64,000 nt of DNA from an uncultured Candidatus Saccharibacteria bacterium (lineage in GTDB: Bacteria; Patescibacteriota; Saccharimonadia; Saccharimonadales; EFPC-124), in assembly GCA_964550035.1 (NCBI GenBank), contig CAZJVU010000003.1:1383-65382 (forward strand), given 5' to 3'. The translations under genes were made by a program, and so were the position numbers. The number at the start of each line of letters is the position of its first letter. Position 1 is the stretch's first letter. Below are positions 37,286-42,913 of the stretch, piece by piece. The notes beneath the pieces were generated by a model that did not search any database, was not told the origin of the DNA, and saw only the letters and a list, made by a program, of their open reading frames with translations.

Positions 37286-37457
37286 ACCCACCATTTCCTT
37301 GCTTACATTTGAATTGCTTCTTACGCATATTGTAGTACATAGTAAGCACAAGCAGCAATAACTCCTGGTGATAGCAGGCAGAATGGTATATAAGTTAAGT
37401 AGGTCTACGACTTACGGGGTGGTAGACAGGTGCCGCTTACGCGGGTGGAGGTGGAGG

Positions 37458-37613
37458 ATGCTTCAAGGATTAGGAGCTGTCTTTCTGTTGCTCATCTTGG
37501 CGGGGCTCGCGTTTCAGCCCGACGCCCCAGTGTGGGTGGCGATCACGTTCTTCGTCAGTTGTGGTGCCATCGTGGTCGGCCTTGTTGCCCTCCTGATTCA
37601 CCGCTACTACTGA
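37458..37613 (+). CDS. Cassette ORF Q: small two-helix membrane protein (51 aa)
   Basis: GGAGGTGGAGG lies directly before the ATG. The sequence is MLQGLGAVFLLLILAGLAF...WVAITFFVSCGAIVVGLVALLI. An extended -10 element TGgTATATA lies at 37384-37392. Confidence 0.5.
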   Translation: MLQGLGAVFLLLILAGLAFQPDAPVWVAITFFVSCGAIVVGLVALLIHRYY

Positions 37614-37633
37614 CAGCGAACCGCGCCACCCCG

Positions 37634-37669
37634 CGCCCTCCTCGGGCCTTGACCGGCTCGGGGAGGGCG
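37634..37669 (+). terminator. GC hairpin after ORF Q
   Basis: CGCCCTCC...GGAGGGCG, an 8-bp stem. Confidence 0.45.
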
Positions 37670-37686
37670 ATCTTCGTTTCGGTATC

Positions 37687-37717
37687 AAAAACCGTCGCAG
37701 TCGTTGCGACGGTTTTT
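37687..37717. terminator. Core-genome intrinsic terminator (ppa)
   Basis: AAAAACCGTCGCA-gtcgt-TGCGACGGTTTTT, a 13-bp stem with A and T tracts on both sides. Confidence 0.8.
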
Positions 37718-37739
37718 GTCTAGAGAGAAGGACTGTTGC

Positions 37740-40406: not shown

Positions 40407-41372
40407 TTAGACTACACCCTGGTTAGCAACGGTCGCATACTCACGCGAATGTTGCTCCAGGCAGTGGCGAATCTTCAGCGCAGCAGTGGCGCCTTCGCCG
40501 ACCGCTGTTGCGATTTGCATGGTTGCACCAGAGCGGACGTCACCCGCTGCGAATACGCCAGGCATGCTTGTCAGCAGATTGTCGTCAGTCATCACAAAAC
40601 CAAACTCGTCCAGCTTGATAGCCGTATTTTTCAGAAAGCCAGTGTTCGGGATTAGCCCGATAAATACAAACACGCCGTCGGTTTCAAAGTCAGTTTTCTT
40701 GCCATCTTTCACGGCGGCAACTTTTACGACTTTTTTGTTCTCGCCAACGATCTCATCGATAGTTGTATTGAGATGCACGGTGATCTTGTCGTTCTTTTCG
40801 AGCTCGTGCTGGAGGACTTCCGAAGCTTTGACCGTACTTCGAACTAACAGATCGATGTGCGTTGCAAAACGCGTCAGGAAGAGAGCTTCTTGCACGCCAG
40901 AGTTACCGCCGCCCACGACGACGAGCCGTTTGTCGCGGTAAAACGCACCGTCGCAGGTAGCACAGTAGTGTACGCCGCGGCCATAGTATTCGGCTTCGCC
41001 AGGGATGCCGAGCTTTTTATAGTCGGTTCCGGTCGCGATAAGGACCGCCTTGGCGCGAAATTCACCATCGTGTGTGGTAATCTTTTTGGTTTCGGTGTCG
41101 TCTTCGATACTCGTCACCTCAGCGTATTCAATCTTTGCGCCAAATCGTTCGGCCTGTGTTTCGAGCTCCTGCGCGAGGTCCATCCCGCTGATGCCTTTGC
41201 TAAAGCCCGGATAGTTGTCGACCCAATCGGTTACCGCCGCCAGGCCACCGATGGCGCCCTTCTCGAGCAGCACTGTATCGATGTCTTCGCGCGTGGTGTA
41301 CACGGCAGCCGATAGCGCCGCTGGACCCGCGCCAATAATTGCCAGGTCGTGGACTTTCTGTTCCTCGGCCAT
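40407..41372 (-). CDS. trxB: Thioredoxin-disulfide reductase
   Basis: Trimmed to MAEEQKVHDLAIIGAGPAALSAAVY. Contains the CATCDG redox site. Confidence 0.92.
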   Translation of the reverse strand: MAEEQKVHDLAIIGAGPAALSAAVYTTREDIDTVLLEKGAIGGLAAVTDWVDNYPGFSKGISGMDLAQELETQAERFGAKIEYAEVTSIEDDTETKKITTHDGEFRAKAVLIATGTDYKKLGIPGEAEYYGRGVHYCATCDGAFYRDKRLVVVGGGNSGVQEALFLTRFATHIDLLVRSTVKASEVLQHELEKNDKITVHLNTTIDEIVGENKKVVKVAAVKDGKKTDFETDGVFVFIGLIPNTGFLKNTAIKLDEFGFVMTDDNLLTSMPGVFAAGDVRSGATMQIATAVGEGATAALKIRHCLEQHSREYATVANQGVV

Positions 41373-41376
41373 AACT

Positions 41377-41658
41377 TTACGCAGCCTTCGAGGCAAGCAT
41401 TGGAGCGATAGCAGTAGTCAACTTGGCCGGGTTCCAACCAACAGTGACGTCTTTTGGCGCTTCTGGATCGTCTTCTTCGGCAACAACGGTGACCGGAACT
41501 GCCAGCTGGCCAGTCAACTCGAGGAGTTCGTTGGTACGCTCAGGATTATCATCGAGATTGATAAGCGAGTAGGTCAGACCTTTGCTTTCTAAGAACTTTT
41601 TGACCTGAGCGCAGTAGACGCAGGTATTTGTTGTATAAATGCTGATTGTTTTTGCCAT
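41377..41658 (-). CDS. Glutaredoxin/NrdH-like thioredoxin-fold protein
   Basis: ISIYTTNTCVYCAQVKKFLESKG with a CxxC motif. Confidence 0.8.
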   Translation of the reverse strand: MAKTISIYTTNTCVYCAQVKKFLESKGLTYSLINLDDNPERTNELLELTGQLAVPVTVVAEEDDPEAPKDVTVGWNPAKLTTAIAPMLASKAA

Positions 41659-41739: not shown

Positions 41740-42294
41740 CTACTTTGGATTGACCGCTACGAGCTCGATCTCGAACACAATATCTGTGTTTGGCGGGATG
41801 CTTCCGTCCGATGAGCCAGTTGCGCCGTAGGCAAGATTGGCCGGAATAACCAACCGTCGCTTGCCCCCGACCTTCATGCCTGGGACGCCGTCCACCCAAC
41901 CTTTGATCACGCCGTTGCCTTGCGAATCTGGATCTGAAAGTTTAAGTGTGACGGGCTCACCGCGGTCATAGCTGCTATCGAATTTCTGCTGCGTCTGCGC
42001 CAGCGTGCCCTTGTAGTGGACCTTGATACTGTCGCCAACCTTTGCTTCGTCGCCCGTGCCAACCGTGAGATCGGTTTTCTGAAGTTCGGTTACAGCACCG
42101 TCAACTTTATAAGCAGTGCTGTCGACTGGTAGCTCTTTCTTTTGTTGTTGCTGTTGCTGCTGTTGAGCTTGCTGATCTGTCGAGTCTTTATTCTGCAAAA
42201 TAATAATAAAGTACGCGCCCAAAGTGCCCACGGTCATTGTCAATGCGATAATACCGATGACGATACGCTGCACAGTTGTTTTACTGACTGCCAT
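41740..42294 (-). CDS. FKBP-type peptidyl-prolyl cis-trans isomerase, membrane-anchored
   Basis: VHYKGTL...FDSSYDRGEP...GVIKGWVDGVPGMKVGGKRRLVIPANLAYG. N-terminal TM helix and a poly-Gln linker. Confidence 0.9.
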   Translation of the reverse strand: MAVSKTTVQRIVIGIIALTMTVGTLGAYFIIILQNKDSTDQQAQQQQQQQQKKELPVDSTAYKVDGAVTELQKTDLTVGTGDEAKVGDSIKVHYKGTLAQTQQKFDSSYDRGEPVTLKLSDPDSQGNGVIKGWVDGVPGMKVGGKRRLVIPANLAYGATGSSDGSIPPNTDIVFEIELVAVNPK

Positions 42295-42326
42295 TCTGTT
42301 ACTCCCTCTCGTTTACAGTTCGACTA

Positions 42327-42437
42327 GGGGCGGATAGTAGGTACGCCGCCCTCGGCACTTGCGGGTCACGATTTGTGTTTGGATAACACAAATCGCGCTT
42401 CCGAGGTGCCTTGGTCGTCATACCTACCATCCGCCCC
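42327..42437 (-). ncRNA. Candidate structured RNA or processing element (111-nt rod-like fold) between the NUDIX and FKBP genes
   Basis: A 17-bp closing stem pairs 42327-42343 with 42421-42437. Its single non-Watson-Crick position is G-U on the minus strand but A-C on the plus strand. There is a middle 6-bp stem CCTCGG/CCGAGG and an apical perfect 10-bp stem at 42369-42395. A TATAAT sits just upstream on the minus strand, overlapping the NUDIX stop. Confidence 0.4.
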
Positions 42438-42451
42438 ACAATTATCTTTTA

Positions 42452-42913
42452 TTATACGCGGCGCTCAATAATTTTATAAGGGTTATGATGATATCCATTC
42501 ACCTTATCTTCTTCGAGATACTTCAACAGCCCGATCGGAAACACCGTCTTGCCCTGAAGCTCACCAAAGCTAAACCACCCTGGTACCCACTGCTGCGGCT
42601 CGCCCTGCTCCATTGCAAGCGCTTCGCCGCTATCAGACTGGAGCACTGGCTCGCCGCCCAAATAGTCACAGAGATAGATCCGCTGGTCGTTATGAAACTT
42701 ATCTGTTGTGGAAGTATAGAGAAGCTGTTTGATCGTAACCGTAAGGCCAGTTTCCTCCATAACCTCACGCACAGCTGCGCGCTCCGGCACTTCGCCCTCG
42801 TCGACGTGTCCACCAGGCAGCACAAAATAATGCTCGCCGTCTTTGTGGCGTTCGATCATCAAGATCTTGCCTTCGTCGTTAAAAATAATTGCCCGTGCAG
42901 TCTGCCTACCCAT
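42452..42913 (-). CDS. NUDIX hydrolase
   Basis: Nudix box GGHVDEGEVPERAAVREVMEETG. Confidence 0.9.
   Translation of the reverse strand: MGRQTARAIIFNDEGKILMIERHKDGEHYFVLPGGHVDEGEVPERAAVREVMEETGLTVTIKQLLYTSTTDKFHNDQRIYLCDYLGGEPVLQSDSGEALAMEQGEPQQWVPGWFSFGELQGKTVFPIGLLKYLEEDKVNGYHHNPYKIIERRV

What the first reader, a model, noticed from the sequence alone, without database searches (positions are those of the whole stretch)
42327..42437. 111-nt rod-shaped RNA structure between the NUDIX and FKBP genes, strand-specific by its wobble pair
A 17-bp closing stem pairs 42327-42343 with 42421-42437. It encloses a 6-bp stem (CCTCGG/CCGAGG) and an apical perfect 10-bp stem (42369-42395, with loop ttggata). 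The single non-canonical position in the closing stem is G-U when read on the minus strand and A-C on the plus strand. This argues that the functional molecule is the minus-strand RNA, the same strand as both flanking genes. A TATAAT overlapping the NUDIX stop lies ~9 nt upstream of the first G on that strand, so the element could be an independent small RNA. Alternatively it could be an intercistronic processing or stability element, or a 5' leader controlling the FKBP gene, whose SD follows 25 nt later. It does not match the SRP RNA, 6S, tmRNA or riboswitch consensus features that I can recall.
Basis: partly seen in the sequence, partly recalled or inferred. Interest (0 to 1): 0.55.

Follow-up and report, generated by a model that had tools for sequence, protein, structure and literature searches.

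The report
Conserved foldback hairpin element of CPR bacteria
The 111-base hairpin between the NUDIX and FKBP genes is real and is one copy of an undescribed family of hairpin elements in Saccharimonadales and at least one Woesebacteria genome, with an almost invariant 57-base centre and a closing stem that changes sequence freely but stays paired; its function is unknown.

Summary
Observation confirmed. Window 42327-42437 folds into a ~45-bp rod on either strand (RNA z = -9.7 and -8.4) and is the only long inverted repeat in the 64 kb. It matches no Rfam family.

Comparative data change the interpretation. The window comes from a Saccharimonadales (TM7/CPR) genome. Four other lineages carry an element at the same NUDIX-FKBP junction in the same orientation. 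At least nine other lineages have the same operon with only a 31-36 nt spacer.

A 57-nt core (42354-42410) is 81-100% identical among these orthologues, although four-fold synonymous sites are saturated (36-44% identical). The 17-27 bp outer stem is unrelated in sequence between copies but always paired. Compensatory changes also occur inside the apical stem.

The same core (54-55/57) lies at unrelated loci: between convergent genes, in either orientation, and in frame inside mnmA of a Woesebacteria MAG.

It is therefore a conserved, structured, multi-locus foldback element. It is closest in behaviour to ERIC, RPE and REPIN elements, but its architecture is reversed: constant centre, free closing stem. 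The wobble-pair argument for strand specificity is weak (9 versus 5). A dedicated FKBP leader is unlikely.

Most likely role, inferred and not shown: a co-transcribed RNA hairpin acting as an intercistronic stability or processing element.

The parts
42327..42437 (-). Whole foldback element (111 nt). It is sense to the flanking NUDIX and FKBP genes on the minus strand and forms a rod of about 45 bp.
   Evidence: fold, z about -9 to -10. Orthologous copies in L002, L019, L020 and L028.
42354..42410 (-). 57-nt sequence-conserved core. On the plus strand it reads GGCACTTGCGGGTCACGATTTGTGTT-TGGAT-AACACAAATCGCGCTTCCGAGGTGCC. It is an imperfect hairpin with conserved asymmetric internal loops.
   Evidence: Identity to the window core: 35/35 (L002, truncated), 53/57 (L019), 48/58 (L020), 46/57 (L028), 54/57 (L013), 55/57 (L016), 54/57 (L012). 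Four-fold sites are only 36-44% identical. Alignments A1 and A2.
42369..42395 (-). Apical stem-loop: perfect 11-bp palindrome CGATTTGTGTT/AACACAAATCG with a 5-nt loop (AUCCA on the minus strand).
   Evidence: It is invariant in most copies. In L028 three pairs are changed on both sides with pairing kept on the sense strand. The loop varies: TGGAT, TGAAT, GGGAT, GCAAT.
42411..42437 (-). 5' outer arm on the sense strand, GGGGCGGATGGTAGGTATGACGACCAA. This is one half of the variable closing stem. The last two bases (42411-42412) belong to the conserved 2x2 internal loop next to the core.
   Evidence: Arm sequences are unrelated between copies but are always complementary to their partner arm.
42327..42353 (-). 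3' outer arm on the sense strand, GAGGGCGGCGTACCTACTATCCGCCCC. It is the partner of 42411-42437. Bases 42352-42353 are the other half of the 2x2 internal loop.
42438..42451 (-). 14-nt spacer (TAAAAGATAATTGT) between the NUDIX stop codon and the hairpin. It is part of the segment absent from empty sites and contains the -10-like GATAAT (42446-42441).
   Evidence: The left flanks of occupied sites are alignable with each other, for example L002 and L028.
42295..42326 (-). 32-nt stretch between the hairpin and the FKBP start codon, with Shine-Dalgarno GAGGGAG at 42308-42302. It corresponds to the entire spacer of the empty sites.
42452..42913 (-). Upstream gene: NUDIX hydrolase (153 aa). Its last codons and stop form a TATAAT (42456-42451) that is conserved in every relative, occupied or empty.
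41740..42294 (-). Downstream gene: membrane-anchored FKBP-type peptidyl-prolyl isomerase (184 aa). It is followed by glutaredoxin and thioredoxin reductase genes.

Best explanation
Shown:
- The hairpin is one copy of an undescribed family of roughly 75-111 nt foldback elements in CPR bacteria (several Saccharimonadales lineages and one Woesebacteria MAG).
- Each copy has a 57-nt apical core whose sequence is held nearly constant.
- Each copy is closed by a stem (5 bp in the mnmA copy, 17-27 bp elsewhere) whose sequence is free but whose pairing is maintained.

Inferred from comparison:
- At this locus the element is old. It sits at the same nucleotide position and in the same orientation, with alignable flanks and a shared GCGG motif at or near the stem base (absent in L028), in five lineages that fall in both major branches of the local tree. 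It has been lost, or was never acquired, in the others.
- Because neutral sites between these lineages are saturated, the core is under purifying selection. Stem pairing is kept either by selection or by arm-to-arm correction.
- The family has moved between loci and between CPR classes, since it also lies between unrelated convergent genes and in frame inside mnmA.

Mechanism I commit to (inference, not shown): the element is transcribed as part of the ABC-NUDIX-FKBP-Grx-TrxR message and acts as an RNA rod. It would work as an intercistronic stability or processing element, in the way ERIC and REP elements do. The long duplex would block 3'-5' exonucleases for the upstream message and/or be cut by a double-strand-specific RNase. 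The constant core would be the docking site of a conserved protein. At convergent gene pairs the same rod would cap both transcripts, which would explain why orientation does not matter.
For: Structure.

Family: identical or near-identical core in L002, L019, L020, L028 (same site) and in L012, L013, L015, L016 (other sites).

Selection: core 81-100% identical while four-fold sites are 36-44% identical. The outer arms are unalignable between orthologues yet paired.

Covariation: 8 pairs changed on both sides, 0 of 500 shuffles as good, slid controls at most 50% paired against 91.5%. This includes G-C to A-U, U-A to A-U and U-A to G.U inside the apical stem of L028.

Age: occupied sites occur in both major branches of the tree. 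They share orientation and alignable flanks, and four of the five share a GCGG motif at or near the stem base.

Position: copies lie directly after stop codons. Two of them fill nearly the whole space between convergent genes, the classical location of REP/ERIC-type mRNA elements (PMC2229807).

Co-transcription is plausible: the genes are co-directional, the gaps are 14 nt and 32 nt, and no terminator-like site lies in this spacer.

No mobile-element genes lie within 10 kb on either side, and gene order there is conserved housekeeping.
Against: - There are no expression data, so transcription, processing and any effect on the neighbouring genes are untested.
- The element is dispensable in many relatives with the same operon.
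- Sequence conservation of both arms of a palindrome fits a DNA-binding or ssDNA-hairpin-binding enzyme equally well.
- Stem complementarity could be kept without selection, by intrastrand template switching (quasi-palindrome correction).
- The sense-strand wobble excess is not significant (9 versus 5).
- Trees of the left and right halves of the locus are incongruent. Transfer of the occupied allele by recombination, rather than ancient inheritance with losses, cannot be excluded.
- Cores at unrelated loci resemble the window core more closely (54-55/57) than two of the orthologues do (46-48/57). This hints at homogenisation or recent spread.
Confidence: 0.45

Rival explanations
1. A DNA-level selfish element (non-autonomous, REPIN/MITE-like). 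The core is the hairpin recognised on single-stranded DNA by a trans-acting transposase, for example a Y1/HUH enzyme of the RAYT or IS200 type, encoded elsewhere in the genome. The copy has no host function here. Arm complementarity is maintained by palindrome-correcting template switching or by the requirements of mobilisation.
For: - Copies lie at unrelated loci, in both orientations, in two CPR classes with different G+C content (44% versus 55%).
- One copy is an in-frame insertion of about 27 codons in mnmA, as seen for Rickettsia palindromic elements (PMC2229807).
- Occupancy of the NUDIX-FKBP site is patchy.
- The core has opposite orientation at the orthologous L013 and L015 site.
- The ssDNA fold is equally significant.
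- REPIN-RAYT systems are reported to persist vertically for very long periods (bioRxiv 10.1101/2021.07.10.451892, abstract).
Against: - There is only one copy in 64 kb, and one each in the 20 kb of L020 and of L028.
- No transposase gene lies within 10 kb.
- The terminal sequences, which are the conserved part of MITEs and REPINs, are the non-conserved part here. No target-site duplication is visible.
- An immobile orthologous copy would not be expected to keep its core at 81-100% identity while synonymous sites saturate, unless it is still active or is being homogenised.
Confidence: 0.3
2. An independent small RNA gene. A rod-shaped RNA of about 110 nt would be made from its own promoter, or cut out of the operon transcript, and would act in trans through a protein bound to the conserved core.
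For: - The architecture, a constant apical domain with a covarying closing stem, is typical of protein-binding ncRNAs.
- -10-like hexamers lie 3 nt and 13 nt upstream on the sense strand.
- The sense strand folds better in 3 of 4 orthologues.
Against: - The TATAAT is present at empty sites too.
- The GATAAT is not conserved in L019, L020 or L028.
- No terminator follows the hairpin.
- Copies lie in either orientation between convergent genes with no room for a promoter. The L016 hairpin starts at the base after the trmB-like stop and ends 15 nt before the end of the opposing gene.
- One copy is inside a coding sequence.
Confidence: 0.1
3. A cis-regulatory 5' leader specific to the FKBP-Grx-TrxR genes, for example a thermosensor or a protein-binding attenuator. 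Transcription would start at the conserved TATAAT that overlaps the NUDIX stop.
For: - The TATAAT is conserved in every relative, even where the last NUDIX codon differs (GTA versus TTA).
- The hairpin would then lie at the extreme 5' end of the FKBP message.
Against: - The Shine-Dalgarno and the start codon lie outside the hairpin.
- Most relatives express the same genes without the hairpin.
- The same core flanks functionally unrelated genes.
Confidence: 0.06
4. A Rho-independent transcription terminator, bidirectional at convergent gene pairs.
For: The element lies immediately after stop codons and fills nearly the whole space between convergent genes in L013 and L016.
Against: - No T-tract follows the stem on the sense strand in any copy.
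- The consensus scan calls no terminator here.
- In the window it lies inside an operon conserved in gene order.
Confidence: 0.06
5. Chance palindrome, adapter contamination or assembly artefact.
For: Three short-read contigs (L001, L002, L015) end at or a few bases beyond the hairpin loop, which shows that assemblers have trouble with this sequence.
Against: - It is found in independent NCBI, Logan and JGI assemblies from different samples.
- Both flanks are authentic and syntenic, and the flanks, arms and core have diverged in the way real evolution produces.
- It preserves the mnmA reading frame in L012.
- The 11-mer from the core has no relevant literature match.
Confidence: 0.01

Closest known systems
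ERIC / IRU elements of enterobacteria (127-bp imperfect palindromes)
   Same: Similar size and rod-like fold. Intergenic, co-transcribed with flanking genes, low to moderate copy number. ERIC elements are reported to change mRNA stability of neighbouring cistrons (PMC2229807, citing De Gregorio 2005). From my own knowledge, ERIC also has a well-conserved central inverted repeat (Hulton 1991).
   Different: No sequence similarity (no blastn match in 5,426 E. coli genomes). A different phylum. For ERIC, orientation is reported to be crucial for the effect, whereas this family occurs in both orientations. ERIC copies are alignable over their whole length and have short terminal inverted repeats with TA duplications, whereas here the outer arms are unrelated between copies.
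Rickettsia palindromic elements (RPE, 105-146 bp)
   Same: Long-stem palindromic elements of a reduced-genome lineage. They are found in intergenic regions and also fused in frame into conserved protein genes (PMC2229807). The L012 copy adds about 27 codons to MnmA without breaking the frame.
   Different: Unrelated sequence and host. RPE families are defined by full-length similarity and occur in many copies per genome. Here only the centre is conserved, only one in-frame case was found, and a search with the four open reading frames of the core found no protein candidate.
REP / REPIN elements mobilised by RAYT transposases
   Same: Extragenic palindromes at gene ends and between convergent genes. 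REPINs form a long hairpin of about 100 nt and can persist vertically for long periods (PMC3116915; bioRxiv 10.1101/2021.07.10.451892).
   Different: In a REPIN the conserved parts are the two terminal REP units and the centre is the variable spacer. Here the layout is the reverse. There is no conserved GTAG or CGTC tag (PMC3733652 defines these tags), no RAYT gene was seen, and density is far lower than the high copy numbers described for REPs (PMC3733652).
Intercistronic RNase III processing hairpins (phage T7 early mRNA, rRNA and pnp leaders)
   Same: Duplexes of more than 20 bp with internal loops, placed between cistrons of one transcript (my own knowledge).
   Different: Those sites are not families with a constant apical sequence spread over unrelated loci. 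Cleavage was not tested here.
Integron attC sites
   Same: Imperfect palindromes that function as folded single strands. One part has conserved sequence and the other conserves only pairing (my own knowledge).
   Different: attC is conserved at the base (R and L boxes) and variable at the apex, which is the opposite of this element. There are no integrase genes or cassette arrays here.

Membership tests
Any Rfam 15 family (including bacterial SRP RNA, 6S, tmRNA, riboswitches, ribozymes) | Score at or above the family's gathering threshold with its covariance model | tested here: not met
   No gathering-level hit in the 64 kb. At E up to 10, only far sub-threshold miRNA, snoRNA and sRNA look-alikes appear, the best at 28.5 bits against a gathering score of 105. 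No hit at E up to 1 for the copies in L019, L016 and L015.
MITE (miniature inverted-repeat transposable element) | Terminal inverted repeats whose sequence is shared by the copies of the family and by a parent IS | tested here: not met
   The terminal 17-27 nt arms are unrelated between copies, and only the centre is shared. No IS or transposase lies within 10 kb.
MITE (miniature inverted-repeat transposable element) | Target-site duplication flanking the insertion | tested here: not met
   No direct repeat flanks the element in the window, L019, L020, L028, L013 or L016 when compared with empty sites.
MITE / repeat family in general | Multiple copies per genome | tested here: inconclusive
   One copy in the 64-kb window and one each in the 20 kb of L020 and L028. 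Copies at other loci come from other contigs. No complete genome was available. The search pattern spans the hairpin apex, where short-read contigs break, so counts are lower bounds.
REP / REPIN | Two inverted 20-40 nt REP units with a conserved GTAG or CGTC tag at the ends and a variable centre | tested here: not met
   Conservation is central, not terminal. GTAGG occurs in the window arm only, not in the other copies.
REP / REPIN | Cognate RAYT (Y1 transposase) gene in the genome | not testable with these tools
   Only 64 kb of this genome is available. No such gene is among the 25 window ORFs scanned with Pfam.
RPE-like in-frame palindromic insert | Palindromic element inserted in a conserved protein gene with the reading frame kept | tested here: met
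   In L012 MnmA, 31 residues (137-167) stand where 2hma has 4 residues (138-141). The ORF is intact and the core lies inside the insert. This shows shared behaviour only. There is no sequence relationship to Rickettsia RPEs.
Intrinsic (Rho-independent) terminator | G+C-rich stem directly followed by a U-tract on the transcribed strand | tested here: not met
   The scan finds none at this site. The sense-strand sequence after the stem is TAGTCGAACTG. The same holds for the other copies.
Structured functional RNA (generic criterion) | Base pairs kept through compensatory changes across homologues | tested here: met
   8 of 29 pairs have changes on both sides. 91.5% of cells are paired against 32-50% in slid controls. 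0 of 500 shuffles reach the observed value. The alignment was fitted to the model, and a single-stranded DNA hairpin would give the same signal.
Integron attC | Conserved R''/L'' and L'/R' boxes at the base with a variable apical region, next to an integrase and cassettes | tested here: not met
   The layout is the reverse, with a constant apex and a variable base. The neighbours are housekeeping genes.

The most novel reading that the evidence does not exclude
The constant 57-nt core may be the recognition module of a still unknown CPR-specific machinery, with the long free-sequence stem as part of its mechanism. One version is a structured RNA, or single-stranded DNA hairpin, that propagates between loci and between CPR classes by a route that does not use terminal repeats or target duplications, for example hairpin-primed (snap-back) synthesis. 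That route would explain why every copy carries its own private, perfectly complementary arms. The other version is a new protein-binding ncRNA class that is scattered in the genome and selected at each site.
Probability: 0.2. Interest if true: 0.7.

Novelty: new variant of a known kind. Interest (0 to 1): 0.5.

Why it matters
CPR (Patescibacteria) genomes are tiny and densely packed, and I found no description of repeat or non-coding RNA families of this kind in them in the literature I searched. A 100-nt non-coding element stands out there when it is kept at one site long enough for synonymous sites to saturate, has a nearly frozen centre shared between Saccharimonadales and a Woesebacteria genome, and can also sit in frame inside a housekeeping enzyme gene.

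If it acts as an RNA, it offers a handle on post-transcriptional control in organisms that cannot yet be manipulated genetically. If it is a mobile DNA hairpin, its reversed architecture (constant centre, private arms, no terminal repeats, no target duplication) points to a mobilisation mechanism different from MITEs and REPINs.

There is also a practical consequence. The palindrome breaks short-read assemblies at its apex, so the family is systematically under-represented and fragments CPR MAGs.

Tried and rejected
- **Rfam.** Gathering and permissive scans of the window, plus a permissive scan of three other copies, gave nothing.
- **Second copy in the window or in 27 fetched loci.** Searched with mismatched patterns and with covariance model R1. 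None was found beyond the listed copies.
- **Phage or plasmid origin.** Three pattern scans of IMG/VR gave 0 hits. blastn against phages, plasmids and E. coli genomes gave no match.
- **In-frame copies in proteins.** A chimeric query made of the four open frames of the core found no candidate in the 5.8-billion-protein index. Even the L012 MnmA was not returned, so this negative result is weak.
- **Pre-existing terminator hairpin split by insertion of the core.** Rejected for this locus. Empty sites contain neither a hairpin nor the arm sequences.
- **Arms copied from the local flank.** Not supported in the window. In L002 the left flank resembles the reverse complement of the window's right flank, but the L002 contig ends at the apex, so this could not be tested.
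- **DnaA box.** The apex reads TTATCCAAA on the minus strand, 8 of 9 to TTATCCACA. The variable loop positions in L012 and L015 break the match, so I treat it as coincidence.
- **CRP-like or lacO-like resemblances of the apex; K-turn or bulge-helix-bulge motifs in the internal loops.** The defining residues are absent on inspection.
- **Hits L011, L014 and L017 from the pattern scans.** These are chance matches to the apical palindrome only.
- **Literature.** No paper holds the core sequence in a relevant context or describes such an element in CPR.

Full report
**1. The observation**

Window 42327-42437 is a 111-nt imperfect palindrome. Its arms, 42327-42379 and 42385-42437, are 75% complementary without gaps.
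- As RNA, the minus strand folds to -72.7 kcal/mol (z = -9.7) and the plus strand to -66.8 kcal/mol (z = -8.4). No shuffle does as well.
- As single-stranded DNA the fold is the same (z = -9.8).
- It is the only inverted repeat of this size in the 64 kb.
- The 17-nt terminal arm has one mismatch, G.U on the minus strand and A.C on the plus strand.

The apical stem is 11 bp with a 5-nt loop. The CCTCGG/CCGAGG pairing competes with the pairing used by the MFE and by the comparative consensus. The TATAAT lies 13 nt, not about 9 nt, before the stem.

**2. Setting**

The element lies on the coding strand between a NUDIX hydrolase (42452-42913) and a membrane-anchored FKBP isomerase (41740-42294). 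These sit inside a co-directional block: PheS, PheT, racemase, ABC exporter, NUDIX, FKBP, glutaredoxin, thioredoxin reductase.
- Homologues of the FKBP that carry a name are from 'Candidatus Saccharimonadales'. The window is therefore a Saccharimonadales (TM7, CPR) genome of about 55% G+C.
- None of the ORFs scanned within about 10 kb on either side matches a transposase, reverse transcriptase or integrase family.
- Rfam gives nothing at gathering level for the whole window. Around the hairpin it gives only meaningless sub-threshold microRNA-like hits.

**3. Same site in relatives**

Using NUDIX and FKBP homologues, I fetched the locus from other assemblies.

Empty sites. The spacer is only 31-36 nt, with no hairpin, in L003-L010, L018, L023-L027 and the contig of P0006.

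Occupied sites. An element of about 103-111 nt lies at exactly the same place and in the same orientation in:
- L002 (contig ends at the apex)
- L019
- L020/L021/L022, from GCA_964525135.1
- L028

The flanks of the occupied sites are alignable with each other. For example, the left flanks are AAGTAACAGTTAGTC in L002 and AAGTGCAGTGTTAGT in L028. The stems of the window, L002, L019 and L020 start with or contain GCGG near their base (GGGGCGGAT, GCGGAC, GCGGAT, GGCGGCC), whereas L028 starts GACCTGG.

In distance trees the occupied lineages fall in both major branches, interleaved with empty ones. The simplest reading is one old insertion followed by at least two losses. The caveat is that trees from the left and right halves of the locus disagree, so recombination may have moved alleles.

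**4. What is conserved and what is not**

Between the window and these relatives, four-fold degenerate sites of the five flanking genes are only 36-44% identical, which means they are saturated.

The 57-nt centre (42354-42410) is nevertheless 35/35 (L002), 53/57 (L019), 48/58 (L020) and 46/57 (L028) identical.

The outer arms have no recognisable similarity between orthologues apart from a GCGG motif near the stem base in four of them and a few bases next to the core. Yet in each copy the two arms pair almost perfectly.

On an alignment of eight copies fitted to model R1:
- 91.5% of cells form standard pairs, against 32-50% when partners are slid by 1-3 columns.
- 8 of 29 pairs show changes on both sides.
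- No shuffle out of 500 reaches the observed values.

Most of these double changes are in the outer stem. L028 also shows G-C to A-U, U-A to A-U and U-A to G.U inside the otherwise invariant apical stem.

A 2x2 pyrimidine (sense strand: purine) internal loop flanks the core in most copies. L013 has it as 2x1 and L028 lacks it.

The architecture is therefore a sequence-constrained apex closed by a structure-constrained stem.

**5. Other loci**

A scan for the apical palindrome found further true copies.
- In one genome of 185,579 species representatives: L012, a 'Candidatus Woesebacteria' MAG with 44% G+C.
- In JGI metagenome contigs of about 55% G+C: L013, L015 and L016.

Their cores are 54-55/57 identical to the window's core, and their arms are again private.

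Contexts:
- L016: the element fills most of the 119-nt space between a trmB-like gene and a convergent HhH-GPD glycosylase-like gene.
- L013: it fills the space between a membrane protein gene and a convergent ABC exporter gene.
- L015: this is the orthologous ABC locus, but it carries the core in the opposite orientation with different arms.
- L012: the element lies inside mnmA, and the ORF stays open. Alignment to the solved MnmA 2hma shows 31 residues where the reference has 4, exactly over the element.

The family is therefore not tied to one operon, one orientation or one CPR class. These counts are lower bounds. L001, L002 and L015 all end at or a few bases beyond the hairpin loop, so short-read assemblies break there, and my pattern spans that apex.

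No copy was found in IMG/VR, phage, plasmid or E. coli collections.

**6. Strand**

- In the four complete orthologous copies, transition mismatches give G.U on the sense strand 9 times and on the antisense strand 5 times.
- The sense strand folds better by 3-6 kcal/mol in three copies and worse by 3.8 kcal/mol in one.
- The family's mixed orientation at other loci points the same way. Either both strands work, or the level of action is DNA.

**7. Interpretation**

Shown: this is a conserved, structured, multi-locus element that is new to Rfam and to the literature I could search.

Inferred:
- The core is under purifying selection.
- Stem pairing is maintained either by selection or by arm-to-arm correction.
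- The element has been mobile at least occasionally, including across CPR classes.

Best functional guess, confidence about 0.45: the element is co-transcribed and acts as an RNA rod between cistrons and at convergent 3' ends. This would be an ERIC/REP-like stability or processing element whose core docks a conserved protein. ERIC elements are documented to be co-transcribed and to alter the stability of neighbouring messages, and RPEs are documented to insert in frame in conserved genes (PMC2229807).

Main rival, about 0.3: a selfish DNA hairpin mobilised in trans, REPIN-like but with the conserved and variable parts swapped (PMC3116915 for the REPIN layout).

An independent sRNA gene, an FKBP-specific leader and an intrinsic terminator are each unlikely, for the reasons given under the rival explanations. 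An artefact is excluded by independent assemblies with diverged but syntenic flanks.

**8. Novelty and score**

The general kind, an intergenic palindromic repeat element, is known. Three things are unusual:
- the reversed architecture, with a constant centre and private covarying arms, no terminal repeats and no target duplication;
- persistence at one orthologous site beyond synonymous saturation;
- occurrence in CPR bacteria, including an in-frame copy in mnmA.

I rate it a new variant of a known kind, with interest 0.5.

Noticed in passing
L001 4850 (end), L002 4545 (end), L015 3061 (end): Three short-read contigs (two Logan, one JGI) end at or a few bases beyond the hairpin loop. The palindrome breaks de Bruijn assemblies, so the family is under-counted in contig databases and fragments CPR MAGs.
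   Followed up: partly
window 42451-42456 (minus strand), and the same position in L002, L003, L007-L009, L018, L019, L020, L028: The NUDIX C-terminus and stop always spell TATAAT, even where the last codon changes (GTA to TTA in L002). It may double as the -10 box of an internal promoter for FKBP-Grx-TrxR. It is present at occupied and empty sites alike.
   Followed up: partly
L012 5876-5968 (Ca. Woesebacteria MAG JASFQB010000009.1): About 27 extra codons are inserted in frame in MnmA, between the ATGHYARV motif and the KDQSYF motif, and they consist of the element. The genome has 44% G+C, whereas the Saccharimonadales loci carrying the same core have about 55%. This suggests transfer between CPR classes.
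   Followed up: yes
L013 2290-5890 versus L015 2-2979: Two tandem ABC exporter genes. The first is 97.5% identical in protein between the two contigs and the second only 68%. The hairpin after the second gene is inverted and has different arms. This looks like a recombination breakpoint within the pair.
   Followed up: no
L020 8979-9290 and L028 9609-9917: A small ORF of 102-104 aa with no Pfam hit lies between the ABC exporter and the NUDIX gene in the L020 and L028 lineages. It is absent from the window, where the two genes abut (42913/42916).
   Followed up: no
window 42142-42170 (minus-strand FKBP codons about 42-51): The FKBP has a run of nine glutamines plus KK after its N-terminal membrane helix. 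This linker is the fastest-evolving part of the locus and makes FKBP identities erratic (70-86%) compared with its neighbours.
   Followed up: no
L020 14649-14742: A second, unrelated 94-nt inverted repeat (70% complementary) lies upstream of the GAPDH gene in the relative GCA_964525135.1. I did not examine whether the window has a counterpart near 37352-37739.
   Followed up: no
window 40407-41396 and 41377-41658: The longest-ORF calls for thioredoxin reductase and glutaredoxin overlap by 20 nt. In relatives the TrxR gene starts 3-4 nt after the Grx stop, so the real TrxR start in the window is probably downstream of the listed TTG.
   Followed up: no
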